A stretch of 32,000 nucleotides of DNA from Candidatus Saccharimonadota bacterium (GTDB lineage: Bacteria; Patescibacteriota; Gracilibacteria; Absconditabacterales; Absconditicoccaceae), in the NCBI GenBank assembly GCA_000503875.1, contig CP006913.1, positions 630,001-662,000 of the forward strand, in the 5' to 3' direction. Below, in pieces: positions 1-32,000 of this stretch (the first letter of the stretch is position 1; every line of letters starts with the position of its first letter). The position numbers and the translations under genes are program-made. The notes below the pieces were generated by a model. That model was not told the origin of the DNA. It searched no databases and worked only from the letters and a program-made list of their open reading frames with translations.

Positions 1-913
1 TATCATCATACGCTCATGCTCTCAAATGTCTAACTAATCTCAACTTCATTACAAAATGATCCACAAGTTCTTGAGCCAATTCTTCTGTAAGTAAACCAGA
101 TTTTAAATCTTGTTCTATATAGATATCCAAAAATGAAGAAGCATTTCAAAGTGACATTGCAGCACCATCTTGTTCTTTTATAGCCGCCAAATATGCGAAA
201 TATACAAATTGTACAGCTTCTTGGGCTGTTTTTGCTGGTTTAGAAACATCTATTCCATACATTTGAGCCATAACTTTAATATCTTCCAATGATTGAATTT
301 GCATTGCTACTTCTTCTCTAAGTCTAACTTTTTCATCAGTCATATCACCTTCAATAGCAGCCTTATCTTCTTTTTTTGCTGCGATAAGATAATCAGCACC
401 ATACAATGCCAATCTTCTATAATCTCCAATAATTCTACCTCTCGCGTAATTATCAGGCAACCCAGTTACTACATGATAGGAACGATATTTTCTAACTTCT
501 GCATCATAAGCAGCAAAAACTGCGTCATTGTGACTTTTTGCATAATGAAAAATTTCTGTGATTTTTGGATCAACTTCCAAACCTTTTTCTTTCACTGCAT
601 TTTCTACAACTCTATATCATCCAAAAGGTTTCATTGATCTCTTTAAAGGTTCATCAGTTTGTAAACCAACAACAGTTTCAAGGTCTTTTTGAATGTATCC
701 AGCCTTGTGACTAGTTACAGAAGAAACCGTATGGGTATCTACACTTCTACATCCATTATTATCTCTTTCTTCTTTTAAAAGTTTTTTACATACTTCCCAA
801 AGTTGTTTAGTTTTTTCTGTTGGTCATTGCAAAAAAGACGCATCACCTTCATAAGAAGTAATATTGTCAGTCACAAATTTCCTAACATCAATAGGATAGG
901 TTAGTTCCGCCAT
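1..913 (-). CDS. pflB: Pyruvate formate-lyase (formate C-acetyltransferase), N-terminal ~304 codons; the 3' end lies beyond the left window edge
   Basis: The reverse-strand frame is open from the ATG (complement of 911-913) to the edge if TGA is sense. The translation [13 protein letters not shown]...GDASFLQ[TGA]PTEKT...KPFG[TGA][17 protein letters not shown]...[11 protein letters not shown][TGA][17 protein letters not shown] is collinear with E. coli PflB ([43 protein letters not shown]). Three of the four in-frame TGAs (14-16, 146-148, 617-619, 824-826) sit on PflB glycines. Confidence 0.9.
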
Positions 914-953
914 ATGCTATATTTAAAATATAAAATTAAACGCACAGTTTGCG

Positions 954-981
954 AATATAGCAATCTACAAATAATTATCAA
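954..981 (-). promoter_or_regulatory. Candidate sigma70-type promoter for pflB
   Basis: On the reverse strand: TTGATA (981->976), a 16-nt spacer, then TATATT (959->954), about 40 nt upstream of the pflB ATG. The -35 overlaps a third copy of the ATCAAGGA half-site. Such motifs are common by chance in AT-rich DNA. Confidence 0.35.
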
Positions 982-1014
982 GGAAAAAAACAGAAAAAAA
1001 TCCAGAAAAAAATG

Positions 1015-1034
1015 TCCTTGATAAAAATCAAGGA
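1015..1034. promoter_or_regulatory. Perfect inverted repeat TCCTTGAT-AAAA-ATCAAGGA, whose core equals the Fnr-type box TTGAT-N4-ATCAA
   Basis: The arms are 8+8 bp and perfect (1015-1022 / 1027-1034). The core TTGAT (1018-1022), N4, ATCAA (1027-1031) lies about 110 nt upstream of the pflB start. A third ATCAAGGA copy is at 977-984, and three A7 tracts (984-990, 994-1000, 1006-1012) lie between. On the minus strand the hairpin is followed by CATTTTTTT, so it could also act as an intrinsic terminator. Confidence 0.5.
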
Positions 1035-1079
1035 ATCACTACTTAATAGAGAATAAAAGTTTATACAGAAAATAGCTCA

Positions 1080-1304
1080 ATGAATAGTTTTAAAAAAATA
1101 GAAGAAGCAGAAAAAACACTTAATGAAAAGCTCTTAAAAATCATAATATGATTTGCTTTTTTAGCAGATTCCAAAGATGATATTAGTAATTTTCTCAGAA
1201 ATCACGCAATTCAAATGTATAACCATTTATTAGAACAATACAAAAAAATGAAAGAATATTATATTTCTTTCAAAACTCGACACAAGGAATATACCAAAAA
1301 ATAG
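1080..1304 (+). CDS. Hypothetical small protein (74 aa, one in-frame TGA)
   Basis: The frame runs from ATG 1080 to TAG 1302-1304 with no TAA/TAG, which is unusual by chance at this A+T content. The translation MNSFKKIEEAEKTLNEKLLKIII[G]FAFLADSKDDISNFLRNHAIQMYNHLLEQYKKMKEYY... looks helical. I recognise no family and see no SD. Confidence 0.4.
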
Positions 1305-1313
1305 TATTAAATT

Positions 1314-2486
1314 TTAGATAATTTCTCTTCTCATTCCCTTCTCAAACCTAATCAAACATTCATAAGGAATTGTTTGACTCGCTTCTGCCAAAGACATAAG
1401 CGTGTTTTTGTTTTTTGGATTACAAGAAATAATTTCAATTTCATCTCCAATCTCCAAACGATCATCAGCCAAAAAACTACATAAATTCATACAAATTGTA
1501 CCTATTTGTTGAACAGATTTTTTTCCAATGGTAAATAATATTTTACTAGATGCCAGCCTAGAAAGCCCTTCTGCATAACCAAAAGGAATTGTCCCTACAA
1601 TTTCTCTATCTTGAAAACGATGGGTATGTCCATAGCTAACACCTTCTCCCGGCCAAACTTCATGTAAAGAAATAATTCTAGAAGTTATCGAAAGCGCCGG
1701 ACGAAGTTCTTTTCCTTTGGTATATAAAGGATCTTCCAAATTCAAAGGATTATATCCATACATAGCCAATCATGGTCTTCGTGCATTAAAGAAATCTTCC
1801 TTAATTTTAAATAAACCAGCACTATTACCAATATGTCTTCGAAGTGGAGCAAATCAATATTCCAAAATCTGATAATACATTTTTTTAAAAAGTTCTACTT
1901 GCTTTTCTACACTTGTTTTTTCGCCACCAATTTCTTTATCCAAATCGCTAATCAATTCTATTCCATCTGCACCATAAAGATGTGACATAACACCTTCAAC
2001 TTCAATATTTTTATATTGCTGACATATTTCCAAAAAATTAGTTAAAGTATCGTTATCAACGCCTTCCCTATTCATACCAGTGTTTATAAAAATATGAATA
2101 CGTACTCTTTTACCAAGTTTTCCAAGTGCTTCCAAAACTTGAATATTATATACAGCAAAAGTAGTTCTAGAAAAATCGAATTTTCTATAATTATCAGGCA
2201 ATGTTTCTCCTATAATCAAAATTTGTTTATTAGAATATTTTTTTACAATTTGATATTCTGGATAACTATCAACAACAACATAGGGAACATCTATTTTTGA
2301 CAAAATTTTTACCATTTGTTTGATTCCATGACCATAAGCATTAGATTTCAAAACAGGAAACAAAAAAGAGTTTGGTTGCAAAGATTGTAAATATTCAATA
2401 TTACGTAAAATATTTTTTTTGTGAATATGTATTATATTCATCGGATATAAACGGGGCGAGAAAAGATTCTTAATCCAAGAGAACAT
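1314..2486 (-). CDS. alr: Alanine racemase (390 aa)
   Basis: A 1173-nt frame joins track ORFs 1854..2486 and 1314..1769 across 2 in-frame TGAs. It carries the PLP-site motif VLKSNAYGHG and INTGMNREG. RP[TGA]LAMYGY matches the conserved RPGIALYG. The stop is TAA. Confidence 0.9.
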
Positions 2487-2696
2487 TTTTAAATTAATAA
2501 TGTAAAATTAACTATGATTTTATAATTTTTGACTAAATATTTGATAACCCGAGCAATAAAAAGAACAAACAAAAGAATTAATTACTTATACAAAAACATA
2601 GAAAATAGTCAAATGAAAGAAAGAAATAAAAAAGACTTGATTTTTTAAACTGGTTCTCTACAAGAATCTCTCGCCCACTAAAAAAACCTAAAAAGT

Positions 2697-2912
2697 ATGG
2701 ATCAAGAAACAAAAAAACTAAAAAAGATTTTGGGGATTCCAGGATGTTCATTAAACATCAGGACACAAATCTCTGAAGAAGAATCAAAAAAACGCATTGA
2801 GGAAATGCATGACGAATTGTTTAGTCCTTTTCGAATAACAGAAGGTAGTAGACATGGAAATCGTTCGTTTCCTATGGATATTTATGACCTCGATGATATT
2901 CAAAGATCATAA
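2697..2912 (+). CDS. Hypothetical small protein (71 aa)
   Basis: It has an ATG start and a TAA stop and is followed within 20 nt by a clean hairpin plus T-run terminator. I recognise no family (MDQETKKLKKILGIPGCSLNIRTQISEEESKKRIEEMHDELF...). Confidence 0.45.
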   Translation: MDQETKKLKKILGIPGCSLNIRTQISEEESKKRIEEMHDELFSPFRITEGSRHGNRSFPMDIYDLDDIQRS

Positions 2913-2924
2913 GTATTCTTTCCC

Positions 2925-2955
2925 AAAAAACCGACTGGAATTCCAGCGGTTTTTT
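2925..2955. terminator. Rho-independent terminator, bidirectional in form
   Basis: AAAAAA-CCGaCTGG-AATT-CCAGCGG-TTTTTT forms a 7-bp GC-rich stem with one bulge. It is flanked by an A-run (2925-2930) and a T-run (2950-2955). Confidence 0.7.
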
Positions 2956-2989
2956 CACAAAAACACAGAATAAATTAAAAATAAAAAGA

Positions 2990-3017
2990 TTGATTTTTAT
3001 ATCAATAATCATAGAAT
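2990..3017 (+). promoter_or_regulatory. Candidate sigma70-type promoter for clpC
   Basis: TTGATT (2990-2995), a 16-nt spacer, then TAGAAT (3012-3017), about 40 nt upstream of the clpC ATG. The -35 is embedded in the inverted repeat ATTGAT-N6-ATCAAT (2989-3006). Confidence 0.4.
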
Positions 3018-3058
3018 AAAACCTCTTCGATATTTTTACACTAAACAAAGAAAAATCA

Positions 3059-5638
3059 ATGATTAATAACCAAAAAATCTTAAGTAAAGAATCTACAACA
3101 AGCTTATTATACGCAAATACTTTTGCTTTACAAAAAAAACACAAATACATCAATGGGGATGACTTATTTTGATGAATATATCATCATATAAATAATTCAG
3201 AAAATGCTGAACTACTGTATATATTGCTTGGAATTCAAAACATAGATATTCATAAAATATTAGGTGAAAAAGAATATAAGAAATTTTCAACTATCCAAGA
3301 ACATAGTGATACGTACCTAATGTTTCCTAAAAAAATCTATACACAAATCAAACAATATGTAAACACAAAAGATAGAAAAATAACAATTATAGACTTATTA
3401 AATATCTCATTAGAAAATTTGTCTAGTGGATTTAAAAAACACCTTATTAGCAAAGGTATAACACCAAAGACATTAATTAAGAACTGCAAAATGATAGCAG
3501 AAAACCCTATCGTAATAGAACAATGACTATTTGCTTTTCTATGATTTTTGGATAAACTTTTCAAGAAATTACATTTATCTCCAAAAAATATTGAAATCAT
3601 GGATATCAAAAATTTTAGTGATATGGGACCAATTAATATGCTACTCGATGAAGTAGATAAAGAAATAATGGATAAAAACGAATCAAGCATAGGTGACAGT
3701 ACTACCAAAACAGCAAAAAAAGAAGAAAAAAAAATGACTATAGAATACTTTGGAACAGACCTTACTAAGGAAGTTAAAGATCATCTTATCGATCCTGTAA
3801 TAGGAAGAGCAAATGAAATCAACCAAATTATTTATACTCTTTTGAGAAAAAACAAAAACAATCCTCTCTTGATTGGAGAAGCTGGTGTAGGTAAAACTGC
3901 AGTAGTAGAAGGCCTTGCTCAAAAAATAGTTTCAGGAGATGTTCCTGAAAAATTAAAGAACAAGAAAATTTTTATGATTGATATGGGAACACTTGTTGCT
4001 GGTACCAAATATAGAGGAGAATTTGAATCAAGAATGAAAGCTATTTTGGAAGAAGCAACAGATCCATTAAATAACATCATCTTATTTATAGATGAAATTC
4101 ATACTATCATTGGAGCTGGTGGACAAGAAAACAACGATGCCGCTCAAATGATCAAACCACTCCTCTCTAGAGGGAAAATCAAACTTATTGGAGCAACAAC
4201 GTTCAATGAATTTCAAAAACATATTGAAAAAGACGCTGCACTCAAAAGAAGATTTCAAGAAGTTATTATCAATGAACCAAATAACCAAGACACGAAACAA
4301 ATTCTTTTAGGATTACAACAAACCTACGAAGATTTTCATGGTGTACATATCGAAGACAATTGTTTTGATTACGCTATCAATCTTAGCAAAAGATATATTC
4401 TCAACAAACATCTTCCCGATAAGGCATTAGACCTAATTGATGAAGCATGTGCAAAAAAATCAACAATGACGGGTAAATTAGAAAACGATGAAGAATATAA
4501 AAAACAAGAAACCGCTATTCAAGAAATTCAGAAAAAAATTGAAGTAGCCATCGAAAAACAAGATTATTTCGGTGCCGCTGCCTTCAAAGAACAAGAAGAA
4601 AATATCAAAAAAGAAATGTTAGTAATGAGAACACAAAAAAATGTACCAACACATCTTAGACCAACTATCCAAAAAGAAGATATTTGAGTAGTATTAGCTG
4701 AAAAATTAGGTATTCCATCAAATATTGTTAACGAATCTGAAATAGATAAGCTCAGAAGACTAGATGTTGTCCTCAAAAGCCATATCGTAGGACAAGATGA
4801 AGCAGTAGAATCTATTGTAAAAACACTTACAAGAAGCAGACTTTCTGTAGTACAAAAAACCAAACCTATGGGGTCGTTTTTATTCCTAGGGCCAAGCGGT
4901 GTCGGTAAAACGTTCTTAGCAAAACTTATTGCAAAAGAATATTTTGGTGATGAACAAGCACTAATCAGATTTGATATGTCAGAATTTATGGAAAAATATT
5001 CTGTTTCCAAACTTATTGGTTCTCCTGCAGGATATGTAGGATACGATGAAGGAGGAAATTTAACAGAAGCTATTAGGAGAAAACCATATTCAGTTATTCT
5101 TTTCGATGAAATAGAAAAAGCTTCTCCTGATGTCCTCAATATTCTGCTGCAAATCCTTGATGAAGGCCTCCTCAAAGATAGCAAAGGAAGAATTGTAGAT
5201 TTCAAGAGCACAATTATTATTATGACATCAAATATTGGATCTGAAGAATTTGGTAAGAAGCAAACAAAAATCTGATTTTCTGCCGGAGGTACAGTTACTG
5301 AAATCGACGAACAACATTTTCAAGATATCAAAACAAGAGTATTGGAAGAACTCAAAAATTATCTTTCACCAGAACTTATCAATAGAATTGATTACAAAAT
5401 AGTATTCAGACATCTTAGTAAACTCATGCTAACAAATATCATGAAAATAAAACTTAATGAATACCTTGCTGCTCGAAAAGATCAACCAGAAGTTAAAATA
5501 CCAAAATACACCAACAAAAATATCGAAGAAATGATAGATAAGATCTACGATCCTCAATACGGAGCAAGACCTATAGAAAGATATATTCAGGATGTTATTG
5601 AGCCAGAAATTATCAAACATATTCTACAAAAAAAGTAA
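3059..5638 (+). CDS. clpC: ATP-dependent Clp protease ATP-binding subunit, ClpC-like AAA+ chaperone (859 aa)
   Basis: One frame from ATG 3059 joins track ORFs 3224.., 3548.., 4868.. and 5342.. across 6 in-frame TGAs. The N-terminal Clp_N-like repeat reads DDLF[G][G]IYHH, matching HLLLGLL. Walker A motifs are GEAGVGKT and GPSGVGKT; Walker B motifs are ILFIDEIH and [10 protein letters not shown]. There is a short M-domain with the UVR-like [16 protein letters not shown]. The ClpP-docking loop K-I-[TGA]-F equals IGF. The stop is TAA. Confidence 0.9.
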
Positions 5639-5693
5639 AGACCTTGACAATTATCGACAACACATAATAATATGTCTAAAATGATTATATAAT

Positions 5694-5720
5694 AAACCCC
5701 ATAAAAGTGGGGTTTATTTT
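5694..5720 (+). terminator. Rho-independent terminator of clpC
   Basis: AAACCCCA (5694-5701), loop TAAAAG, TGGGGTTT (5708-5715) form a perfect 8-bp stem, followed by ATTTT. Confidence 0.75.
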
Positions 5721-5731
5721 ATGTTTAAATG

Positions 5732-5759: not shown

Positions 5760-5785
5760 AAAGCTATCAATTTTTTAGCGAAACC

Positions 5786-5791: not shown

Positions 5792-5798
5792 CTTATTT

Positions 5799-5903
5799 AT
5801 GAGGCACGAAAACCGCATAAGATCTACTAAGATACTTCGTTGGGCGTTATGAATATTTTTATATTCATTGCCATTTTTTTTGTACATCGTTTTTACCAAA
5901 GAT
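5799..5903 (+). other. Signal-anchor or signal-peptide-like N-terminus of the giant protein
   Basis: The sequence MRHENRIRSTKILR is followed by WALGIFLYSLPFFLYIVF and then TKD. I see no obvious signal-peptidase or lipobox site. Confidence 0.55.
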
Positions 5904-8900
5904 AATTTTCTTCAAAAAATACAGGCTCAAGAAGAAAATATGCCTCAAAATTTAAGTCAAGAACTTCAAAATTGGGGTATGACTCCTCTTTTGCAAAATA
6001 CAGAAGAAACATCACCAACTAAAGAAACAGAAAAAATAGAAAATATTGAAACAACAAATAGTTCAATTTTTGATTTTTTTAAAAGATTAAATACCGCGCA
6101 AGAAAATTCTCAAAAAAAAGATAAAGAAAAAAATGACAAACAAGATCAAATAACTTGAGATAATCAAACAACTTGAGACAATCAAACAACTTGAGATAAT
6201 CAAAAAAATAAAAACGACGACATACCAAATAATATAGTAGAAGATACGTTAAACTATATTTCAGAAAAATACTATTGATCAGAAAACAACTACTTAGAAG
6301 AAGATCTTTGTTCTTACTGAGAAACAATAATCGTACATCTAACATGATGAACAAATCTTTTACCAGAATATTTATCTTGAAACACTATATACGTAGTAGG
6401 AACATGATCCTATATTTTTGATTATATGCTAAAAATAACCGAAAATTGTACAACTATTATCGGGTTTTCATGAGCAACAACATTTTATACAAAAGATCAA
6501 CAATGAGCAACAATCAAAATAAGTTCATGATCAAATAACATTATAGAAAATCTCTCATTAGAATGAACATTAGATTGAAAATGATGATCACATACAGGAA
6601 ATAACTATGGTATATATATATCTACTACAAAGAATATTATTCATAATATACAAAATTATGACCAAAGAAGGTTTGGTATTTATATGGATTTGTTTGATAA
6701 TAGAATAACAGATACTCATTACTACAAAACAGATCAAGAAATTACAGAACAAGCCACAGGAGACAATAAAGAAACCATAGAAAAACAAAAAGACACAACA
6801 CTAGAAAAAAATATTTTAACCATTCTCCAAGAAAAAGAAAAGAAAAAGAACGATATAGATATTAGACCAAAAGAAGAATTTTCAGCCACAAACGAACCTG
6901 TAAAAGTCAAAAAAGAAAAAGAAATAGCAGAATCAGAATTTTTATGGAAACGTTTTGATAAACAAGAAAACAATTACAAAGGAAAAACATCTCTAGATCT
7001 TTCTGAAAGCGAATGAAGCATTCCTGTTGCCGTAACATTAGAGTCTTTAGATGAGAAAATTAAAGTAGATATACCTGAAGGTACTATATTTAAGACAAAT
7101 GATGGAGAAATATATGATTGAATAATTATAGCACCACAAAAAGATACGCAACATTGATTTTCAATGTCTTGAGGAAAAATAAGAAGTGCAAATGCAATCA
7201 AAATAGGATCTTTAGAAGAATGATTACAATTAGAAAATACCAGTGGCGAATCAGTATATGCAACCGTAGAAATGCCAGTAGATGGGTACAAGTCTGGAGA
7301 TAATGTAAATGTTTATTCTTCAGAAGATGGCGAAAATCGAGAATCTCTTGGTGTTTTTGAAGTACAAGAATCATCATGAGTCAATATTGTACAAGTGCCA
7401 ACAGATCATTTTTCTATTTTTGCAATAGGAAATGTTGTTTGAAATTATTTTAATGGAAGTATAACACTTACTGGTGATGTTCCAGTACGTTTGTTTATAG
7501 GTGAAAGTATAGATTGGTGTGATGTAAACAAAAATTGAACTTTTAGTTTTGCTGACAACCGATATCAATCAGGCATTAGAAGTGTTATTTGTGAAACATC
7601 ACGAAGTTCTGCTTCAAATTTAACAATTTATTTTCGTGTAAGAATTTTTGATGATTGAATCATACCGGAACTTACGAATAAAGATATTCAATTAGTTATA
7701 GCTGGTAGGTATGAAACATGACTTACTAGTACATTTTATTACGATGGTACAGCTCCAATAAATTGATCTTTCAACATAAATAATAATGCTGCAACCACAA
7801 ATAGTACTTCTGTTACTTTGAACACAACATGTGCAACAGACGGTTGAGCTGGATGAGTACAAGTAGCCTTTGGAGAATCTGTAAGTCCATCAAACCGACA
7901 AACTTGTTCAGCAAGTATGGCTTATACATTATCAGCTGGAAATGCGACAAAAACTGTCTATATGAGCTTTAAAGATGCATTGGGGAATACAACAGCTAAT
8001 ATAACTGATACTATATTATTAAGTACAGATTCTACTCCACCAACAACAACAATTGATGCCCCTCCAGACTGAGCATTACAATCATTTCAAATTTTCTTAG
8101 AATTTACTGATTACGATAACATAGCATTATCAACATGTCATTATAATGTTTACAGTTACAATTTGGGTATTGTGGCTTGAGGAATTAGATATTGTAATAC
8201 ACAGCTTGAATTTCTTGATGAATTTCCTGAAGATGATTATGACATTGAGGCATGGTCAGTAGATACCTCAAATAACCAAAGTATCCATGCTCGAAGTAGA
8301 TTTCGTGTAGAATTAACACCACCTACGGGTACTATTTCCATCAATGCAGGAGCTGCTTATACAAACAATGCTGCTGTTACCCTAACATTATCAGCTTCCG
8401 ATGGTTATGGTATTAGTGCCATGATGTTTTCTTGTAATAATTATAACCGAACCAATATTGAAACTTATGCAACAAGCAAATCTTTTAATATGACAAATCA
8501 AGTCAATGCTTGATGTACTACCACTCAATGAACCAAAACTGTTTATGTAATGTACAGGGATAATGCTGGAAATCGATCTACCGCCATAAGTGATACTATT
8601 GTTTATGATACTATTGCTCCTACAAGTACTACTATTTCTATCAACGGAGGAGCTGCTTATACAAACAATGCTACTGTCACCCTAGGATTATCAGCTTCTG
8701 ATACTAATTGAATAACTCAAATGCAATTTTCTTGTAATAATTCTAATCGAACTACTGCCGAAACTTATGCAACAAATAAATCTTTTAATATAACAAATCA
8801 AACTAATGCTTGATGTACTACTACTCAATGAACTAAAACTGTTTATGTAAGATTTAAAGATATTGCTGAAAATCGATCTACTGTTATAAATGATACTATT

Positions 8901-23672: not shown

Positions 23673-24539
23673 ATGGCTGATATCTTCTTCGATATGGAAG
23701 AACCAACAAACGGGAAAGAGAACAAAACTCCAGAAAAAAACAAAAAGGATTGATCTCCTAAGTTTTTGATGAGCAGTGATGCTTTTTCCAATTGTGGACT
23801 TGATTTAATTTTTGAATTAACAAAAGAAGCCGGATTCGACTGATTAGATTTAGCTATATGGAAAAATTTTGATGCTCGAAACGTAGATTACGTGAAAAAG
23901 CTATCAAAAAAGCATGAATTACCAATCAAAGTTATCCAAGTATCAGAAAATATAAATCAAAAAGAATTAAACAAAGCCTTAGATCTTTGTGAAGCAACAG
24001 GTGCCGATACAATTACAATCAATGCTCCAAAATTTTTCAATATGAAATCATTTAACTTTTTGGAAGATAATCTAGAAGCTTATAAAAAAGATAACAAACA
24101 TATTCATTTCAGTATTATCAATCCTGAAGATTCCAATGTATTTGCGCTTCCAATACCTAAATATCGTTTTACTAATATTGTAGATATCATCAAAAAATAT
24201 GGATGTTACCTAGGATTGGATATTGCAAATTTTGATGCGGATGTTTTGGAAAATGATTTTACAAGAAAATTATCATCATTTCTCCCCTATATATCAGTTC
24301 TCTATTTCTCAGACAAAAATAGAGTTGGTGATGGGCATCTCCTTCCTGGAGAATGAACATTAAAACTAGAAAGCTTTCTCAAAAAGATAAAACAAATAGG
24401 ATTTAACCGCTATTTCAGTAGCAAAGTAATCATAAGTAAATCAGATTTAGCTGATTCAGAAAAACTAGCAACTATCCTCAAAAAAATAAGAAATTATTAC
24501 AAAGAACAATTCGAAGATCTTACCATAGATGAAGATTAA
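23673..24539 (+). CDS. Xylose-isomerase-like TIM-barrel protein (sugar phosphate isomerase/epimerase / AP-endonuclease-2 superfamily), 288 aa
   Basis: A frame from ATG 23673 joins to track ORF 23892..24356 and continues to TAA 24537-24539, with 3 in-frame TGAs. The motifs are EAGFD[TGA]LDLAIW (the canonical aGFDGvEl) and GDGHLLPGE[TGA]TLKLESFLKKIKQIGFNRYF (H-x-P-x-G-x-G-x-i...l...gy-x-g). Confidence 0.65.
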
Positions 24540-24575: not shown

Positions 24576-24578
24576 ATA

Positions 24579-24779
24579 TTATTTCTTTTTGGTTCTAAAA
24601 ACAAAATAAATAATCAATAGCGGTAATGCAAGTATTTTTTTGAATGTTGGACGTATCCAAAAAACTGCCGGATATTGCTTTAATAGCATCTCCAAAAAAA
24701 GCGAGAACTTGTTAATTTCCTTATGAGCATCAAACGGATATTTGAGAAAATCCCAAAGAAAACGAAACATAAGACACAA
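24579..24779 (-). CDS. Hypothetical small hydrophobic protein (66 aa)
   Basis: It has an ATG start and a TAA stop. It lies 25 nt downstream of tig and immediately upstream of the shared terminator. The C-terminal segment ILALPLLIIYFVF looks like a TM followed by RTKKK. I see no homology. Confidence 0.3.
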   Translation of the reverse strand: MCLMFRFLWDFLKYPFDAHKEINKFSLFLEMLLKQYPAVFWIRPTFKKILALPLLIIYFVFRTKKK

Positions 24780-24804: not shown

Positions 24805-26064
24805 CTATTTTTTAGCTGGTTTTTTAGGTTTCTTTTCCCCTTCTTCCTTTATAGAAGCACTTTTACCCGCAGAAAGTTTTTCATATAATTTTCTTTCTAT
24901 TTCCAAATCAACTGGTTTTTCTCGATTAATATCAAGTTTTAATTCTTCAGCGATTTTTTGGAGAATAAAGAATTTCTCAAGACTTTCTGAAGCAGCTAAA
25001 GAGATATCATCTACGAATTTTTTTGCTTTTTCTTCTCCCATTTGTTTAAAATAAGCATTCATTTTTTCTTTTCCACCAAATCTTTTTTCAAGATTTTCTA
25101 GTCTTACACGTACTTCTTGGCTAAGAAGTGTTTGAGGAATAATAACTTCCATATATTTTTCTCTGATAATTTTGAGAAAATCTTCAACTTCTTTAATTAA
25201 TTCTGTATCAAATTTTTGTGTAGAAATACTTTCATCAATATATTTCAATAAATCAGCTTCGTTTTTAACTTCAGATTCTTTACCAAACAATCTAAGTAAA
25301 GTTTCTTCATTAATTTCTGGTAAAACAACGTTTTTGATATCAGTTAACACAAATGCAATAGTAGTTGGTTTGCTATCTGCTTTTTTTGTTTGTACGGTAG
25401 GTGGCAAATCTTTTTCTTTGTAAGGGATAGTAAAACTTTCATTTTTCTTTTTACCAACAAAAGTATCTACGAAAAACGGGAATTCTTCAAATTCTTGTTC
25501 TCCTACATACAAAATACCCTTGTCTACTTCTTGTCAATCTTTATCCAAAAAAGACATGGATACTTTTGATATACCTTGACGAGTCATTGTATCAGTATCT
25601 ACATAATCAGCATAATTTTTTTTGAGACGAAGCAATGCCTCATCTATCTCTTCTTTTGTCGCTTTAGGGGAAATGGTTTTCATAGTAAGTGATGTCCAAT
25701 CCTTGTTTTTTGTAATAACTTCGGGAAATATATCCAATTTCAATGAAACAACAGTGTCATCACCTTTTTTATCTTGCTTTACATCATATGGTTCACCAAT
25801 AAATTTAATAGAAGATTCTTCGGTTACAACTTCTTGTAATCCTTTATTGATAAGATGTTCATAAATACTCATAGAAACATATTCTGGTTGTATTTGTTCT
25901 TCTACCAAATGCATAGGAACAAATCCCTTTCTAAAACCAGGTAAACTAAGATCTTTTTGAAATCATTTCAATGCTTTTTCTTTTCCTTTAGCGTAATCAT
26001 CAGCACTCAATGTGAGTTCAATATCATAAAACGCACCTGTTCCTTTAGCTACTTTTTTTTGCAT
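24805..26064 (-). CDS. tig: Trigger factor (419 aa)
   Basis: A 1260-nt frame from ATG (complement of 26062-26064) joins track ORFs 25534..25914 and 24805..25512 across 2 in-frame TGAs. It has the ribosome-binding signature LPGFRKGFVP and a Lys-rich tail. The stop is TAG. Confidence 0.9.
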
Positions 26065-26146: not shown

Positions 26147-27997
26147 TTACCTATCAAAAAATTTATCTATAGTCTTTTTTTCAATTTTGACAAAAAACGG
26201 TCTTCCATGCTGACAAACAAACATTCACTGGATATATTCAAAGCCATCTTTCAAAAGACGGGTCATTTGTTCATAAGACAAAGGATCTCATGCTTTGATA
26301 GAGATTTTACACGCTTTTGTTGCAAAAATAGCATCCAAAATATGATCAAACGTAATAAGTTGTAACGCCAAAATATAGGTAAATAGATATTCAATATCCA
26401 CCTTATACATACTAAAAATTTGAGGTACTGCATAGACAATAATTTTGGTTTCTGATAATAATGAGCAATCAAATCATAAATTATTAATCTGATCTATTTT
26501 TTCTTGAATATCTCCTCTTTTGGGAACATCTACAGTCAACGGTTGTAATAATAACTCTGATTTAACATATCATGCAGATTTTTTCATTTTTTCAAAGGCA
26601 ATTCTTTCTGCTAATGCATGCTGATCAATATAAAACAAAGATTCTTGGGTTGAAACTACAATATAACTATTCCAAACCTGGCCAACCACCTGATATGTTC
26701 ACAATTGTTCATGAAAATACTGAGCCTGAAGCTCTTGTCCAGAAAACCCTATCGTAGAAGATTGAATATGTCAAAAACCACCAGGGAATCCTGCTGGAGG
26801 GGGAGGAGAATCAGAGGCAAACAGAGATTCCGCCACTGCGCCTCCCCCTCCACTCGCACCAAATCATCAACTCGCATCAAATCATCCATTTCCACTACCA
26901 AATTCACTACTTTCACTACCAAATTCTCAGTTTTCATTAGCAAATCTACCATGCTCTCCAGTTCAATTAGTTCAAAATTTCGAAAACGTATGTTCTACGC
27001 TCACTATTTTGTTGATCCCCAAGGTTTTTTTTACCGATTCATGTACCAATGAAAAAATAGAATTAGGATCAAGAAATTTTACTTCACTTTTCTTGGGATG
27101 CACGTTGACATCAACAAATGAAGGTTTAACCGTCAACATCAAAATTGCAAATGGGTATTCTCCAGGAGTAATCTGTCTTACATATGCATCCAAGAGTGCC
27201 TTTTTGATTATTTTATCCATAACTGGCCTTCCATTGACGTATATTTTTATCGTTTCAGCTGATCCAAACGTCAATCCAGCATCAGAAACAATTCATTGAA
27301 TTTGTATATTTTCATTTTCTGATTCAACAGGTTTTAGATATTTTGATCGATCTTTTCTCCAAATTTGTAAAATTCTTTCCATCAATCAATCTGTCGGAGG
27401 GAGATCAAAAGCAACTTTATCGTTTTTCAATAAAGTAAAATGCTTATCATAATGGAACATTGCTACATCGACAAAATAATTATAACAATAAAAATATTCT
27501 GTCTGAGATGATTTGAGAAATTTCAATCTTGCAGGAACATTATAAAACAAATCTTGAATAGAAACAATAGTACCGTGTTTAAATCCTACGGGGACATGTT
27601 TCATAACCAGACTTTGTTCTATTTTTGTAAGTTTAGTAGCTATTTCTGCATACGCAGTCTTGGAAATAATACTTGTTTTGCTTACTTCTGCAATACTTGC
27701 TAATGCTTCACCACGAAATCCATAACTTTGCAAGTTGTATAAATCCTGTTCTCCATTGATTTTTGAAGTTGCATATCTTTCCAACAATAAATCCATATCA
27801 GAAAGTTCAATTCCTGTTCCATTGTCTTCTACGCTAATAAGTGATTTACCACCATCATTAACGGTGATTTTTATATGTGTTGCTCCAGCATCAAGACTAT
27901 TTTCTACAAGTTCTTTGATAACAGAAGCTGGTCTTTCAACAACCTCCCCCGCTTTCAATCTATTGATCATATAATCAGGTAGCTTATGTATCGCCAT
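26147..27997 (-). CDS. mutL: DNA mismatch repair protein MutL (616 aa)
   Basis: The GHKL ATPase N-terminus reads IKELVENSLDAGA...VEDNGTGI...GFRGEALASI. The transducer region reads IYVNGRPV...YPFAILMLTVKPSFVDVNVHPKKSEVKF. A Gly-rich linker follows. The C-terminal dimerisation domain reads YIDQHALAERIAFEK...CQHGRPFFVKI. The frame is a single 1851-nt run with about 15 in-frame TGAs and a TAA stop. Confidence 0.9.
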
Positions 27998-28076
27998 AAT
28001 ATTTCTTAAGAGTATTTAAAACCAATAATTAAGTTCAAAGTAGTAGATAGTAACGTTACCAAATTAACTAAATCTC

Positions 28077-28106
28077 TTGCTTTTTCAATCGAATTCTATG
28101 TATACT
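28077..28106 (+). promoter_or_regulatory. Candidate promoter for the ftsB-like/FKBP/orphan/nrdR gene string
   Basis: TTGCTT (28077-28082), an 18-nt spacer, then TATACT (28101-28106), about 30 nt upstream of ATG 28139. Confidence 0.3.
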
Positions 28107-28138
28107 AGATTATATTATACCTATTATAAACATTATCT

Positions 28139-28549
28139 ATGAATAAATTCAAAGAATTCTTATTGCGCCATCCTACTCGTTCAAAATACCTATTGCTAAT
28201 AATAGACATTTTTTTCGTACTCGTTGCTACCAAAATGTTTGTTAATTATAATAACATTAAAATGGCTATCGATGAAACAGCACTACAATCAGAAAATAAA
28301 AAGTTAGAACTTGCTTTTACAGAAAATTTCCAACTTCCTTATGAAAAATCTGAATATGCGGAATTTTTTCTAAAACACGAAAACAATATATTGCTTCCCA
28401 AAGAATTTATTGTTAAATTTCAAATGATAACCCCAGACACTACCACAGGCAATAATCAAAAGACAGAAGATAGAACGCGTTTTATTGATTCTCCTCAAGA
28501 ATGACGAAAACAATTCTTTTACGAACAACTCTTCCTCAAAAAGGAATAA
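28139..28549 (+). CDS. Bitopic membrane protein, putative septum-formation initiator (FtsB/DivIC-like), 136 aa
   Basis: Track ORF 28139..28504 extends through one TGA to TAA 28547-28549. It has an N-terminal TM (YLLLIIDIFFVLVATKMFV), a short coiled-coil-like stretch (ALQSENKKLELA), and SEYAEFFLKHENNILLPKEFIV, which resembles the DPEYIEKVAREKLGLVKPGEIVF tail of DivIC/FtsB. Confidence 0.45.
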
Positions 28550-28616
28550 GAAAACATTGAAAGAATGACTAAAATATATACCTTTAGACAAGCTTTTTAT
28601 TTTAACACAAAAAAAA

Positions 28617-29132
28617 ATGAGAAAAATCACAATAATTATGGTTTGTATAAGTATGTTATGATTGTTATGATGTAGTAAAACACCAAGAATAGAAAACGGA
28701 GATCTTGTAACAATTTCTTATTCTGGTACATTAAAAGATGGTGAAATTTTTGAAAGTGGAACAAAAACAATCACTATAGGTTCTTGAGATATTATAAAAG
28801 GTATTGAACAAGCATTAATAAACAAAAAATCTGACCAAAGATTTAATATAAAAATCACCCCAGAAGAAGGATATGGAGATGAATATTCTATATATAACCA
28901 ACAACGTGTTTCATCATTTATTTTTGAAAAATTATGACTTTCTACAGAAACAGGAACAACTGTTACATTAGATAAAATCACGTGAGAAATAAGTAAACAC
29001 GAAAAAGACAAAGATGGTAATACTATTATTATATTGGATGTTAACGCACCGCAAACCAGACAAGAAACAAAATATAATATACATATAGAAAAAATAGAAA
29101 AAGCACAAGCATGAGATTGATATACGCTTTAA
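28617..29132 (+). CDS. SlyD-like FKBP-type peptidyl-prolyl cis-trans isomerase, predicted lipoprotein (171 aa)
   Basis: The frame runs from ATG 28617 to TAA 29130-29132 with 7 in-frame TGAs. The signal plus lipobox reads MRKITIIMVCISML[G]LL[G]CS. The FKBP core reads GDLVTISYSGTLKDGEIFESG...ITIGS[G]DIIKGIEQAL...ITPEEGYGDEY. The tail LDVNAPQTRQETKYNIHIEKIEKA corresponds to the SlyD VDFNHPLAGKTLHFEVEVVEV. The antisense track ORF 28718..29011 is spurious. Confidence 0.8.
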
Positions 29133-29156
29133 TTGCTAATGCTTTGATAAAAAACT

Positions 29157-31334
29157 ATGCAACTGTTCAAAAGATTATTACTTTCACTTTTCCCAGAACA
29201 AACAGCAAACCAAGGAATAAACCCAGCTAGTATGTTTATTTCTTTTATTTCAACAAAAGAATTTTTTTCAGTAATAAATAGAAAAATTGTAGAAAATTAT
29301 AAATTAAATCTATTTGATGTTACTATTGATCCTTTTGAATTCAAAACAGGATTTGGTGAAAACACTCAAATAAAACAAAAAGATATTGATCTTTATTATG
29401 GATATTGTGCCAGTGCCAACATCAATGGTTATAGATTTTTTAATCCCGCAAATGTAGGAAATAACATAACGCTTGTGACAAGTCTATATACAAGAGACTG
29501 TTTCGAAAACGAAGAACAAGATTTTTTCTTAAATTTTTTATATACGACCTATCTCCTCTTCTTCGTATTTAGTGCAAAAATCAAAAATTTTCCTTATACA
29601 AGCAAAGAAGATAATTACAATCGATTTATAGAAGTTTTTTTTAGCTTTTATGAATTTATTTTTCAACAAACAGGCAAAAAGCCAGACAAAGCGACATTTG
29701 CAAGAATAAAAAAGAATTTATTGAGTAAAGTAGAAATATTTTTTTTCTTGTTTTATTCTTATCAAAAGTATAACAAACTTTTTACCAGCGAACAATTTCC
29801 TGACGAAGAATTCTATAAACGATTGTTTTCTGATGAATTAAAAAACGACCAACAGATTATGATAGAAGATTTTGCTCAAAACGTACAAAAATATACATCA
29901 AAAACAACATTTTCTGCAATTGATAACAAACTTTTGCAATATATTCTTCCTGCTGATATTTTAATAAGATATTTGTTTTTGGATACCAATATGACACTTA
30001 TTATAGAAAGTGTGGTTGCCAAATTATTCAATAAAGAAACATTGGATAATTTTATGAAAAGTTTTCTCAAAGATGACAGCCAATGGGATGAATGTATTCT
30101 TTATATTACTGATTATAAACATTACAAAAAAAACTTCTTTGCTTGAGTACAAAAATATTTAATTACTGCTCTCAAAAAAGAAGGAATAGACCCTTTTGAC
30201 GAAGATATTGAAGAATCTGGTTCACGAATTGGTGATGATGAAGAAAGCATAGAAAATCTCAAAATACCAGAAAGAATCAAAAAAGAATCAAAAATTATGG
30301 AAAAAATTCTTAATTTTTTTATAACCCTTCTTTGATGATTTTGGATAGCAAGGGGCGAAAGCTTATTCTTAAGATTATATAAACCAAATCTTCTCAAAGA
30401 ATTAATTACAACTAATTACGAAAATTTAAAAGAAACCGCTTTGCATACCTATTGATGACTTCTTTATAGCTACGGAAAAAATATATTTTATTACAAATAT
30501 ATCTCAGAAAACGTAAGACTTGGAAGACAAAAATTCTATCTTCCTACCAAAAGCACCTCCAAAAACACCTATTCCAATTTTCACATTTTACGTTTAATGG
30601 ATGAAAGCGCACTAGCCATTATATTACAAGATATAAACCCCAAAGACATCAAAATATACAACAAAAATAAGCTTTTAATCGAACTTTTTAAAAATCATTT
30701 TGGAAAAGAAATATCCAATTTAGTCCAATTAGAAACGACTGATTTTATCAAAACAATATACCAAGATATAGAGCATATTTTCACAAACAAAAACCTGACT
30801 ACTATTCTCGAACGTAATTTCAATCAAACTGATCTTTATCATATCAAAGAAAGTTTATATAATATTGATTTTCGAATAAGTAAGGCATATTATCAAGAGA
30901 ACAAAAAACAACATGAAAATCAATCACTTTTTGATGGAAATACTTTGTTAGAAATATATGCACAACACAAAGAAACATTATTATGATTTCTTCTCTATCT
31001 AACAAGAATGATACAAAAGCATCCAAATGATAAAGAATTTTTTATTACCCTATACAATAGAAATATTATCCATATTGCTGATCAAGGAATACCAATACGA
31101 AATACTATAATAAGCAATCTTTTCGAAAAATATAAAGACATATTACAAGAAATAATAACCATAGATGATAATTTAGATTTTCTGAGAATAGGTGAAGAAA
31201 ATTTAGAACGATTTACCAAAAAAGTACCAATTCCAGATATTCAAAAACAAATTACTGGAGAAGATTATCTTTGGTTTAAAGGATACCTCAAAAATATCAC
31301 CTACTACAATAAACGCTTTTTTATTCCTAAATAA
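29157..31334 (+). CDS. Hypothetical protein, 725 aa, no domain recognised
   Basis: A single frame joins track ORFs 29157..30146, 30597..30986 and 31008..31334 across 6 in-frame TGAs. I checked it codon by codon and found no TAA/TAG. It is rich in F, Y, K, N and L and contains an acidic stretch [26 protein letters not shown]. The stop is TAA. Confidence 0.7.
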
Positions 31335-31339
31335 TATAT

Positions 31340-31774
31340 ATGAAGTGCCCAAAATGTAACAACATGGATACTAAGGTTATTGACTCAAGAAGTATAGAAG
31401 CTGGTCAAACTATCAAACGTAGAAGAGAATGTGAATTTTGCAATAACAGGTTTACTACTTTTGAGAGAAGATGAACTACAGAACTTATTGTTATCAAAAA
31501 AGATTGAACCAAAGAAATGTATGATAGACAAAAGTTAAAAAAAGCGCTTCTTCTTTCTTTTGCCAAAAGAGATATCAATCAAGAAGAATTAGAATGACTT
31601 TTAAACAGCCTAGAAACTCAACGATCTAGTGATTGAAATGAAGTAACATCAGTACAAATTTGAGATGATATACTCAAATCACTAAAAAAAATAGATGCAG
31701 TTGCCTACATAAGATTTGCTTCTGTTTATAGATCATTTAATAACTTAGAAGATTTTAAGAAATTTATAGACTAA
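31340..31774 (+). CDS. nrdR: Transcriptional repressor NrdR (144 aa)
   Basis: [44 protein letters not shown] is the NrdR zinc ribbon. VIKKD[TGA][10 protein letters not shown] matches the conserved KKDG of the ATP-cone. [14 protein letters not shown] is also present. There are 5 in-frame TGAs and a TAA stop. Confidence 0.9.
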
Positions 31775-32000
31775 TTCTGAAGTGCCCATTCCAACACCTC
31801 ATCTTCTGGGGTGTCTTTTTTATTAGTGATAATTTTATCGGGAGAAATTCCTATTTCATCAATATTTTTTTTGGATTTTCACATATATCGTTTTGCTACT
31901 GTATATTTAAGCATACTTCCATCATCATATTTCATAAGTTCTTGAACAGATCATTTTCCAAAAGATTTTCCACCTACCAGCAAAGCACCTGTTAAATAAT
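31771..32000 (-). CDS. S41-family C-terminal processing peptidase, C-terminal ~76 codons; the 5' end lies beyond the right window edge
   Basis: The reverse-strand translation is ...[15 protein letters not shown][TGA][23 protein letters not shown][G][17 protein letters not shown]...LEWALQN*. This contains the S41 signature TFGKGSVQ and G-I-x-PD. The TAG stop (31773->31771) overlaps the nrdR TAA. Confidence 0.75.

What the first reader, a model, noticed from the sequence alone, without database searches (positions are those of the whole stretch)
1..32000. The whole window is written in genetic code 25 (TGA = Gly), so the standard-code ORF track is misleading
Thirteen CDSs become full length only when TGA is read through.

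Where a homologue motif is known, the TGA sits on a conserved glycine:
- PflB: AMSL[G]N matches AMSFGR, FLQ[G]P matches FLAGA, PFG[G] matches PFGG
- Alr: RP[G]LAMYG
- ClpC: the I[G]F ClpP-docking loop
- TIM-barrel protein: GFD[G]L
- NrdR: KKD[G]
- S41 peptidase: FGK[G]SVQ
- FKBP lipoprotein: lipobox LL[G]C
- LamG domain: GKF[G][G]
- dozens of SBBP repeat glycines

Every visible CDS end is TAA or TAG, and none is TGA. Code 25 is documented only for Absconditabacteria (SR1) and Gracilibacteria, which places the contig in those CPR lineages. I cannot tell the two apart from this window. Any pipeline run with table 11 or table 4 would call most of this region pseudogenes or mistranslate about 330 residues.
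Basis: partly seen in the sequence, partly recalled or inferred. Interest (0 to 1): 0.7.

Follow-up and report, generated by a model that had tools for sequence, protein, structure and literature searches.

The report
Known SR1 genome, TGA codes glycine
The window is a stretch of the already published genome of the uncultured SR1 (Absconditabacteria) bacterium RAAC1_SR1_1, in which the usual stop codon TGA encodes glycine.

Summary
With TGA read as a stop, the window breaks into short ORFs of at most 380 aa. With TGA read as sense it holds 15 tightly packed CDSs at 94% coding density. Thirteen of them carry 342 in-frame TGA codons in total, and every complete CDS ends in TAA or TAG.

TGA means glycine, not tryptophan:
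- Pfam scores rise by about 150 bits in total with Gly compared with Trp.
- Gly is the best of all 20 residues on a ClpC profile built from standard-code homologues.
- In orthologues from three close relatives, TGA exchanges with GGN in 141 of 255 differing pairs and with TGG in only 2.

The lineage can be resolved. Eleven Gly-translated proteins are letter-for-letter identical to GenBank AHB41375-AHB41387 of candidate division SR1 bacterium RAAC1_SR1_1. Kantor et al. 2013 already reported UGA = Gly and a tRNA(UCA) for that genome.

Two additions:
- The window's own record (GCA_003543185.1) is annotated in GenBank with table 11, as gene fragments.
- Table 25 is incomplete here. The 63 CGA codons behave as tryptophan, as Shulgina and Eddy 2021 predicted for this same genome.

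Interest is low.

The parts
1..913 (-). Pyruvate formate-lyase (PflB), N-terminal 304 aa; the gene runs off the window. 4 in-frame TGA.
   Evidence: Pfam PFL-like scores 274 bits with G and 265.4 with W. In solved PFL structures, 3 of the 4 TGA positions align with G.
1080..1304 (+). Small hypothetical CDS of 74 aa. 1 TGA and 1 CGA.
   Evidence: The Gly translation is an exact match to AHB41375.1 (P148_SR1C00001G0584).
1314..2486 (-). Alanine racemase, 390 aa. 2 TGA and 2 CGA.
   Evidence: Pfam Ala_racemase_N scores 132.6 bits (G) against 121.5 (W). RP[TGA] aligns with RPG in solved structures. Exact match to AHB41376.1.
2697..2912 (+). Small hypothetical CDS of 71 aa, no TGA. It has 1 CGA, stored as R in both GenBank entries.
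   Evidence: Exact match to AHB41377.1 (G0586) and to the TPA record's HCY21164.1.
3059..5638 (+). ClpC-type AAA+ unfoldase, 859 aa. 6 TGA, 1 CGA and no TGG.
   Evidence: Pfam AAA_2, AAA, AAA_lid_9 and ClpB_D2-small. TGA at residue 739 is G in 35 of 35 standard-code homologues. Exact match to AHB41378.1.
5799..23579 (+). Giant membrane-anchored surface protein, 5,926 aa. 289 TGA, 48 CGA, 1 CGG and 51 TGG. Domains: Big_12, Fn3_assoc/CHB_HEX_C_1, Big_9, SBBP beta-propeller repeats, right-handed beta-helix regions (3 matched stretches), fn3 and Laminin_G_3.
   Evidence: Single ORF once TGA is sense. Domain map. SBBP scores 76 bits (G) against 20.5 (W), and LamG 67.6 against 38.3. It occupies the single free locus tag (G0588) between ClpC and the TIM-barrel gene.
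23673..24539 (+). Xylose-isomerase-like TIM-barrel protein, 288 aa. 3 TGA.
   Evidence: Pfam AP_endonuc_2 scores 38.2 bits with G. With W it scores 27.8, below the 31.1 cutoff. Exact match to AHB41380.1.
24579..24770 (-). Small hypothetical CDS of 63 aa, no TGA.
   Evidence: Exact match to AHB41381.1 (G0590).
24805..26064 (-). Trigger factor, 419 aa. 2 TGA.
   Evidence: Pfam Trigger_N and Trigger_C. Exact match to AHB41382.1.
26147..27997 (-). MutL, 616 aa. 14 TGA and 1 CGA.
   Evidence: Pfam MutL_C scores 75.8 bits (G) against 63.6 (W), and DNA_mis_repair 105.6 against 101. The Gly translation is identical to P0001 = AHB41383.1.
28139..28549 (+). Small protein of 136 aa with a hydrophobic N-terminal stretch. 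1 TGA and 1 CGA. Function unknown.
   Evidence: ORF. A 136-aa gene sits at the same position in L084-L086, with 73-93% identity. No Pfam hit. This exact sequence is not in the protein collection.
28617..29132 (+). FKBP-type lipoprotein, 171 aa. 7 TGA, 2 of them in the lipobox region ML[TGA]LL[TGA]C.
   Evidence: Pfam FKBP_C scores 54.2 bits (G) against 50.4 (W). Exact match to AHB41385.1.
29157..31334 (+). Conserved hypothetical protein, 725 aa. 6 TGA and 6 CGA. No Pfam family.
   Evidence: No Pfam hit. Exact match to AHB41386.1. 84-93% identical orthologues in L084-L086.
31340..31774 (+). NrdR repressor, 144 aa. 5 of its 6 Gly codons are TGA.
   Evidence: Pfam Zn_ribbon_NrdR. ATP-cone scores 54.6 bits (G) against 44.0 (W). 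Exact match to AHB41387.1.
31771..31998 (-). S41 (C-terminal processing) peptidase, last 75 aa; the gene runs off the window. 2 TGA and 1 CGA.
   Evidence: Pfam Peptidase_S41 scores 40.4 bits (G) against 36.0 (W), and 43.9 with CGA also read as W.

Best explanation
The window is chromosomal DNA of the uncultured Absconditabacteria (candidate division SR1) bacterium RAAC1_SR1_1, or of a population indistinguishable from it at the protein level.

In this organism UGA is not a stop codon. It is an additional and heavily used glycine codon: 342 sites in the window, and the commonest Gly codon here. Termination uses only UAA and UAG.

The mechanism is inferred here and documented in the literature for this genome and phylum. 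A dedicated tRNA-Gly with anticodon UCA reads UGA.

CGA is also very probably read as tryptophan rather than arginine, so the working code is table 25 plus CGA (and perhaps CGG) = Trp.

Any table-11 annotation shatters these genes into fragments. Table 4 puts Trp at the 342 Gly sites. Table 25 still puts Arg at about 64 probable Trp sites.
For: Shown here:
1. ORF structure and frame statistics.
2. Pfam scores are higher with Gly than with Trp: PflB +8.6, Alr_N +11.1, TIM +10.4, MutL +4.6 and +12.2, FKBP +3.8, ATP-cone +10.6, S41 +4.4, SBBP +55.5, LamG +29.3 bits.
3. Gly is the best of the 12 residues tried on the LamG domain.
4. Gly is the best of all 20 residues on an HMM built from 35 standard-code ClpC homologues. 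This holds for the window and for two relatives. In relative L005 the Walker-A glycines themselves are TGA.
5. In codon-level alignment with three close relatives (L084, L085, L086), 122 sites are TGA in both sequences. Of 255 differing pairs, 141 are TGA/GGN and only 2 are TGA/TGG.
6. Eleven Gly-translated CDSs are exactly identical to GenBank proteins AHB41375-78, 80-83 and 85-87 of SR1 bacterium RAAC1_SR1_1.

From the literature:
- Kantor et al. 2013 (PMC3812714) report for this 1,177,760-bp genome that UGA = Gly, that a tRNA(UCA) gene is present, and that code 11 splits the genes.
- The Shulgina and Eddy 2021 source data list GCA_000503875.1 as UGA = Gly, CGA = Trp, CGG = '?'.

Evidence for CGA = Trp in the window:
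- The commonest differing partner of CGA in orthologues is TGG (12 of 48), against AGA in 4. The commonest differing partner of TGG is CGA (12 of 32).
- In paralogous repeats of the giant gene, CGA pairs with TGG 24 times and with CGA 22 times; AGA and CGT are not among its nine commonest partners. Of 39 CGA sites with partners, 12 have a TGG partner and 3 have a partner among the other four Arg codons.
- In the SBBP repeats, CGA (4 repeats) and TGG (2 repeats) occupy the same position.
- The canonical fn3 Trp position is a CGA codon, and reading it as W adds 10.5 bits.
- Reading CGA as W instead of R changes Pfam scores by about +18 bits in total.
Against: - No tRNA gene lies in the window, in its 10-kb flanks, or in any recoded relative's locus fetched here. 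The decoding tRNA was therefore not seen directly.
- The absence of RF2 was not tested.
- Many TGA sites fall in non-conserved columns. One (ClpC residue 38) aligns with Trp in the two nearest relatives.
- For CGA the Pfam gain is modest, and four of the ten domains compared lose 0.5-2.5 bits with W (TIM, Trigger_C, ATP-cone, LamG).
- CGG occurs only once, so nothing can be said about it.
- There is no proteomic evidence from this organism in hand.
Confidence: 0.97

Rival explanations
1. Table 4: TGA is read as tryptophan, as in Mycoplasma and several insect endosymbionts.
For: It gives the same ORF structure. Prodigal chooses code 4 for such contigs (Kantor et al. 2013), and Logan/ENA proteins of relatives are stored with W at these sites. 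One ClpC TGA aligns with TGG in two relatives.
Against: - W costs about 150 Pfam bits in total compared with G.
- W ranks 6th to 13th of 20 residues on the ClpC profile.
- TGA exchanges with TGG in 2 of 255 differing orthologous pairs, against 141 with GGN.
- It would give the giant protein 5.7% Trp.
- It would break invariant glycines such as the GHKL DxGxG motif: a relative stored as 'DNWTWI' against 'DNGTGI' in the NCBI copy.
Confidence: 0.01
2. Standard code: the in-frame TGAs are real stops, and the region is made of pseudogenes, short genes or assembly errors. This is what the table-11 GenBank annotation of this record implies.
For: The TPA record GCA_003543185.1 is annotated this way, for example HCY21166-68 for ClpC.
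Against: - Homology continues uninterrupted across every TGA, over the full length of PflB, Alr, ClpC, MutL, Tig and NrdR.
- 122 TGA sites are conserved as TGA in orthologues that are 63-95% identical in protein sequence.
- In-frame TAA and TAG are completely absent, although they occur 18-42 times per 1000 codons off frame.
- An independent closed genome has the same sequences.
Confidence: 0.005
3. Ambiguous or dual decoding: UGA is mostly Gly but is partly misread, either as Trp by tRNA-Trp or through UGG being read by tRNA-Gly(UCA). On this view the shift of Trp coding to CGA is an escape from that ambiguity.
For: - Shulgina and Eddy note that U34 wobble could cause ambiguity between UGA (Gly) and UGG (Trp).
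- In the window CGA (63) is as frequent as TGG (62), and ClpC has no TGG at all.
- TGA use varies strongly between genes.
Against: There is nothing direct. TGA sits at invariant glycines, for example ClpC residue 739 and the Walker A motif of L005. That argues for accurate decoding. Sequence data cannot measure misreading.
Confidence: 0.05

Closest known systems
Candidate division SR1 bacterium RAAC1_SR1_1 (CP006913 / GCA_000503875.1; Kantor et al. 2013, mBio, PMC3812714)
   Same: Eleven CDSs of the window are exact matches to its GenBank proteins AHB41375-AHB41387, locus tags P148_SR1C00001G0584-0596. GC content is similar (0.30 in the window, 0.31 for the genome). UGA = Gly and a tRNA(UCA) are reported in the paper.
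   Different: The window itself comes from another record, the TPA assembly GCA_003543185.1, contig DPJE01000003.1. That record is labelled 'Patescibacteria group bacterium' or 'Candidatus Gracilibacteria bacterium' and is annotated with table-11 fragments. DNA-level identity to CP006913 could not be checked.
NCBI translation table 25 (SR1 and Gracilibacteria code; Campbell et al. 2013, Rinke et al. 2013)
   Same: UGA is used as a Gly codon and UAA/UAG as the only stops. The genome is low in GC and belongs to a CPR lineage.
   Different: Table 25 keeps CGA and CGG as Arg, whereas here CGA behaves as Trp. That matches the Codetta prediction for Absconditabacterales.
Table 4 (Mycoplasmatales, Entomoplasmatales and insect endosymbionts; UGA = Trp)
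   Same: UGA is a sense codon and the genome is AT-rich. Gene finders pick this table for the contig.
   Different: The amino acid is Gly, not Trp. Per Kantor et al., decoding uses an extra tRNA-Gly(UCA) rather than a tRNA-Trp that reads both UGG and UGA.
Giant surface proteins of Absconditabacteria such as Vampirococcus lugosii (Moreira et al. 2021, PMC8080830)
   Same: Very large proteins predicted to sit in the membrane and rich in interaction domains. In Vampirococcus they are proposed to mediate attachment to the host.
   Different: This one is longer (5,926 aa, against up to 4,163 aa reported for Vampirococcus). No sequence comparison with the Vampirococcus proteins was made here.

Membership tests
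Genetic code 25 (UGA = Gly; SR1 / Gracilibacteria) | In-frame UGA inside conserved genes, at positions where homologues have glycine | tested here: met
   Pfam scores favour G over W by about 150 bits in total. G is the best of 20 residues on the ClpC profile. PDB alignments agree. TGA exchanges with GGN in 141 of 255 differing orthologous pairs.
Genetic code 25 (UGA = Gly; SR1 / Gracilibacteria) | UGA is not used for termination; only UAA and UAG are | tested here: met
   The 11 complete ends of the main CDSs are 9 TAA and 2 TAG. The last TGAs lie inside regions homologous to full-length relatives. In-frame TAA and TAG are absent.
Genetic code 25 (UGA = Gly; SR1 / Gracilibacteria) | A tRNA with anticodon UCA and glycine identity elements (G1:C72, C2:G71, G3:C70, U73) | not testable with these tools
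   No tRNA gene in the window, its flanks or the recoded relatives' loci. Kantor et al. 2013 report a tRNA(UCA) gene in RAAC1.
Genetic code 25 (UGA = Gly; SR1 / Gracilibacteria) | Release factor 2 (prfB) is absent | not tested
   The rest of the genome could not be fetched. The absence is recalled from Campbell et al. 2013, which is not held in the library.
Genetic code 25 (UGA = Gly; SR1 / Gracilibacteria) | Membership of the Absconditabacteria or Gracilibacteria lineage | tested here: met
   Exact protein identity to SR1 bacterium RAAC1_SR1_1. The Codetta source data list it as GTDB species UBA5124 sp000503875, under the o__Absconditabacterales block. The nearest ClpC in the GTDB representative genomes is SR1 HOT-345, at 59% identity.
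Genetic code 4 (UGA = Trp) | UGA at positions where homologues have tryptophan | tested here: not met
   Only 2 of 255 differing orthologous pairs are TGA/TGG. W lowers Pfam scores in 10 of the 12 domains compared and raises ClpC AAA_2 by only 0.7 bits.
Absconditabacterales extended code (CGA/CGG = Trp; Shulgina and Eddy 2021) | CGA at positions where homologues or paralogues have tryptophan, and not at conserved arginines | tested here: met
   CGA and TGG are each other's commonest differing partner in orthologues (12 pairs). The same holds in paralogous repeats (24 pairs). fn3 gains 10.5 bits, SBBP 6.6 and S41 3.5 with W. None of the 10 CGA/CGG positions in the three recoded ClpC genes falls in a column dominated by Arg in standard-code homologues.
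Absconditabacterales extended code (CGA/CGG = Trp; Shulgina and Eddy 2021) | CGG is also read as Trp | tested here: inconclusive
   There is a single CGG codon in the window, and it pairs with a CGA in a paralogous repeat. Codetta also returned '?' for CGG in this genome.
Absconditabacterales extended code (CGA/CGG = Trp; Shulgina and Eddy 2021) | tRNA(UCG) and tRNA(CCG) with Trp identity elements, and no tRNA(ACG) | not testable with these tools
   No tRNA genes in the DNA held. The Codetta source table lists tRNA(ACG) as 0 and tRNA(UCG) and tRNA(CCG) as 1 each for this genome.

The most novel reading that the evidence does not exclude
The two reassigned codons may be under gene-specific selection rather than spread only by AT mutation pressure.

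TGA supplies 53% of Gly codons along almost the whole 5,926-aa surface-protein gene, but 22% in the other main CDSs of the window (Fisher p = 3e-16). Only 7-12% of Gly codons are TGA in Alr, trigger factor and ClpC. CGA has reached parity with TGG as a Trp codon.

This could mean that UGA decoding is slower or less accurate and is avoided in highly expressed housekeeping genes. It could also mean that dense recoding of the host-contact protein acts as a barrier against its expression in other cells or by phages, or that Trp coding is moving from UGG to CGA to escape wobble ambiguity with tRNA-Gly(UCA).
Probability: 0.12. Interest if true: 0.45.

Novelty: already known. Interest (0 to 1): 0.15.

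Why it matters
The biology is textbook for this phylum and was published for this very genome in 2013, so nothing new is learned about the genetic code.

The practical points are real:
1. A public GenBank record of this organism (GCA_003543185.1) carries a table-11 annotation that splits genes into 'hypothetical protein' fragments. ClpC, for example, is stored as pieces of 379, 187 and 98 aa.
2. Large protein collections hold relatives translated with table 4, with Trp at invariant glycines.
3. Even the correct table-25 annotation probably carries Arg at about 64 Trp positions in this 32-kb window. No standard translation table that I know of includes CGA = Trp. Profile searches, structure predictions and phylogenies made from these proteins inherit those errors.

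Tried and rejected
Table-11 fragments worked and gave the source record.
- Looking up P0001 (the RAAC1 MutL) found no gene on record, so the CP006913 DNA could not be fetched.
- tRNA scans of the window, its flanks and all five recoded relatives' loci found nothing.
- Rfam at gathering threshold on the whole window found nothing. Permissive scans of two intergenic gaps gave only chance-level hits, with E-values of 0.5-0.8.
- Campbell et al. 2013 (PMC3619370) is not held. Hanke et al. 2014 does not mention release factors. A paper search for the assembly accession found nothing.
- The ClpC profile from standard-code homologues was uninformative for CGA, because no CGA site lies in a conserved column.
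- A first self-BLAST of the giant protein returned no off-diagonal matches. Querying it in 150-aa windows worked.
- Selenocysteine and programmed read-through were considered and dismissed without a dedicated test. 342 sites at glycine positions across 13 genes are incompatible with either.
- The TGA excess in the giant gene is not explained by repeat amplification alone. The share is 35-59% in every 500-codon block, and 49% or more in ten of the twelve blocks.

Full report
OBSERVATION

The window has 29.8% GC. Read with table 11 it looks almost non-coding: ORFs of at least 100 aa total 5,490 aa and none exceeds 380 aa. If TGA is read through, the total rises to 14,683 aa and one ORF reaches 5,943 codons. 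Reading through TAG or TAA instead produces no ORF longer than 380 aa.

I delimited 12 CDSs by homology or length. Three more small ones sit in the gaps and are also annotated in GenBank. The total is 342 TGA codons, and 289 of them lie in a single 5,926-aa gene.

Within the 12 main CDSs, TGA occurs 33.9 times per 1000 in-frame codons. TAA and TAG are absent in frame but occur 18-42 times per 1000 in the other two frames. Coding density is 94.3%. The 11 complete ends of the main CDSs are 9 TAA and 2 TAG. A run of 5,900 codons free of TAA and TAG in 30% GC DNA cannot be chance.

WHICH AMINO ACID

I translated TGA as G and as W and scored both versions against Pfam. The gains with G were:
- PFL-like +8.6 bits
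- Ala_racemase_N +11.1
- AP_endonuc_2 +10.4 (the W version falls below the curated cutoff)
- DNA_mis_repair +4.6
- MutL_C +12.2
- FKBP_C +3.8
- ATP-cone +10.6
- Peptidase_S41 +4.4
- SBBP +55.5
- Laminin_G_3 +29.3

Two domains were neutral: ClpC AAA_2 (-0.7) and Trigger_N (+0.7).

On the LamG domain, which has 21 TGA, G scored best of the 12 residues tried: G 67.6, A 62.9, N 60.2, S 59.5, down to C 42.0 and W 38.3.

With X placed at the TGA positions, solved structures show G opposite three of the four PflB TGAs and opposite Alr RP[TGA].

A scan of GTDB representative genomes with ClpC returned two recoded relatives and many standard-code homologues. The relatives are SR1 HOT-345 (59% identity) and UBA3291 (57%). 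Against 35 standard-code ClpC sequences, the window's TGA at residue 739 (the I-G-F loop) is G in 35 of 35, and residue 39 is G in 20 and A in 15. In UBA3291, 13 of 19 TGAs fall in columns with at least 31 of 35 G, including both Walker-A glycines. An HMM built from those 35 sequences ranks G first of all 20 residues for all three recoded genes. The summed scores are G 2456.5, then C 2413.9, with W at 2400.1.

CODON EXCHANGE BETWEEN CLOSE RELATIVES

A MutL search returned full-length relatives at 82-91% identity. I fetched their contigs (L084, L085 and L086). The loci are syntenic with the window. In codon-level alignments of the shared genes, 122 sites are TGA in both sequences. Of the 255 pairs where a TGA faces a different codon, 141 face GGN and only 2 face TGG. 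The reverse view agrees: 45% of the differing partners of GGA are TGA. TGA therefore behaves as a synonymous Gly codon.

IDENTITY OF THE SEQUENCE

Table-11 fragments of the window are on record on NCBI GCA_003543185.1, contig DPJE01000003.1 (462,027 bp), at about positions 273,433-305,432.

The best MutL hit, P0001, is 'hypothetical protein P148_SR1C00001G0592 [candidate division SR1 bacterium RAAC1_SR1_1]', on a 1,177,760-bp contig. It equals my Gly translation residue for residue.

Exact look-ups showed that 11 Gly-translated CDSs are identical to AHB41375-78, 80-83 and 85-87 of that genome. The same clusters contain the TPA record's table-11 pieces, HCY21162-HCY21190.

Kantor et al. 2013 describe this closed genome. 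They state that it uses UGA for glycine and has a tRNA(UCA) gene nearly identical to those of other SR1 genomes. They also report that code 11 gave 2,288 short split ORFs.

A SECOND REASSIGNMENT

Shulgina and Eddy 2021 predicted that Absconditabacteria also read CGA and CGG as Trp. Their source table lists this genome as UGA = Gly, CGA = Trp and CGG = '?'. A 2026 paper treats the reassignment as established for Absconditabacterales. I tested it in the window.

- CGA is as frequent as TGG: 63 against 62 codons in the main CDSs, with CGG occurring once. ClpC has no TGG at all.
- In orthologue alignments the commonest differing partner of CGA is TGG (12 of 48), although the two codons differ at two positions. 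AGA is the partner only 4 times. The commonest differing partner of TGG is CGA (12 of 32). AGA exchanges mainly with AAA and AGG.
- Inside the giant gene I aligned paralogous repeats with TGA, CGA and CGG masked. CGA pairs with TGG 24 times, with CGA 22 times, with TAT 9 times and with TTT 6 times. Of 39 CGA sites with partners, 12 have a TGG partner and 3 have a partner among the other four Arg codons.
- In the SBBP repeats, CGA (4 repeats) and TGG (2 repeats) occupy the same position.
- ClpC CGA at residue 806 and MutL CGA at residue 217 face Trp in relatives.
- Reading CGA as W changes Pfam scores as follows: fn3 +10.5 (the canonical Trp), SBBP +6.6, S41 +3.5, Beta_helix +1.8, Alr_N +1.6, DNA_mis_repair +0.4, Trigger_C -0.5, ATP-cone -0.8, TIM -2.2 and LamG -2.5. 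The net change is about +18 bits.

I conclude that CGA is very probably Trp here. The working code is then table 25 plus CGA = Trp, and the GenBank table-25 proteins still carry Arg at about 64 sites in this window.

MECHANISM

Shown here: UGA is decoded as Gly, UAA and UAG are the only stops, and CGA behaves as Trp.

Inferred or taken from the literature: a dedicated tRNA-Gly(UCA) reads UGA (Kantor 2013). RF2 has been lost (recalled from Campbell 2013, not checked here). tRNA(UCG) and tRNA(CCG) with Trp identity read CGA and CGG (Shulgina and Eddy). No tRNA gene lies in any DNA I could fetch.

RIVALS

Table 4, pseudogenes under the standard code, and selenocysteine or read-through are all excluded by the data above. 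Partial ambiguity of UGA and UGG decoding cannot be assessed from sequence.

OTHER CONTENT

The giant gene encodes an N-terminally anchored protein with Ig-like domains (Big_12, Big_9), Fn3_assoc, SBBP beta-propeller repeats, right-handed beta-helix regions (3 matched stretches), fn3 and Laminin_G_3. It resembles the giant surface proteins proposed to mediate host attachment in Vampirococcus.

TGA makes up 53% of its Gly codons, against 22% in the other main CDSs (Fisher p = 3e-16). The share is 35-59% in every 500-codon block along the gene.

VERDICT

The phenomenon is already known, so interest is low.

Noticed in passing
window 1-32000, all CDSs (63 CGA and 1 CGG in the 12 main CDSs; for example giant-protein residues 2992, 3054, 3236, 3297 and 4065, ClpC residue 806, MutL residue 217): CGA behaves as a tryptophan codon, not an arginine codon. 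It exchanges with TGG in orthologues and in paralogous repeats, and it occupies the canonical fn3 and SBBP Trp positions. This matches the Codetta prediction for this genome. Table 25 and the GenBank proteins put Arg there.
   Followed up: yes
window 5799-23579 compared with the other CDSs: Use of TGA differs strongly between genes. It makes up 53% of Gly codons in the 5,926-aa surface protein and 22% elsewhere (Fisher p = 3e-16). The share is 7-12% in Alr, trigger factor and ClpC, but 5 of 6 in NrdR. It is similar all along the giant gene, so repeat amplification alone does not explain it.
   Followed up: partly
window 1-32000 = GCA_003543185.1 DPJE01000003.1, about positions 273433-305432: The public TPA record that holds this window is annotated with table 11. 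ClpC is split into HCY21166 (379 aa), HCY21167 (187 aa) and HCY21168 (98 aa), and MutL, Alr, Tig and others are split likewise. The source names are 'Patescibacteria group bacterium' and 'Candidatus Gracilibacteria bacterium', although the proteins are identical to those of SR1 RAAC1_SR1_1.
   Followed up: yes
proteins P0002, P0003, P0005, P0009 and P0012 (relatives of the MutL gene at window 26147-27997): Many Logan, ENA and some NCBI-sourced protein entries for relatives are translated with table 4. They carry Trp at invariant glycines, for example 'DNWTWIEL' in P0009 against 'DNGTGIEL' in the near-identical NCBI entry P0007.
   Followed up: partly
window 3170-3172 (ClpC residue 38): This TGA aligns with TGG (Trp) in both nearest relatives (L004 and L005) and with Leu in standard-code homologues. 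It is most simply a TGG-to-TGA (Trp-to-Gly) substitution at a variable site, but it is the one place where TGA faces Trp.
   Followed up: partly
window 5799-23579: A single 17.8-kb gene encodes a 5,926-aa protein with an N-terminal hydrophobic anchor, Ig-like domains, SBBP beta-propeller repeats, beta-helix regions, fn3 and LamG domains. Once CGA is read as W, it also shows Asp-box-like SxDxGxxW motifs (residues 507-514 and 2709-2716). It is probably a host-attachment surface protein. A relative (L084) has an orthologue longer than 3,888 aa.
   Followed up: partly
window 29157-31334: A 725-aa protein with no Pfam match is conserved at 84-93% identity, and in the same position between the FKBP and NrdR genes, in three relatives. 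Its function is unknown.
   Followed up: no
window 8778-10064 (giant-protein residues 2927-3355, SBBP repeats): Within the repeats, the choice between TGA and GGN is fixed by position. For example, the glycines of 'DSGGNSY' are always GGN, while those of 'IVgNFxgTgYFgS' are always TGA. This suggests the repeats duplicated after the codon choice was made.
   Followed up: no
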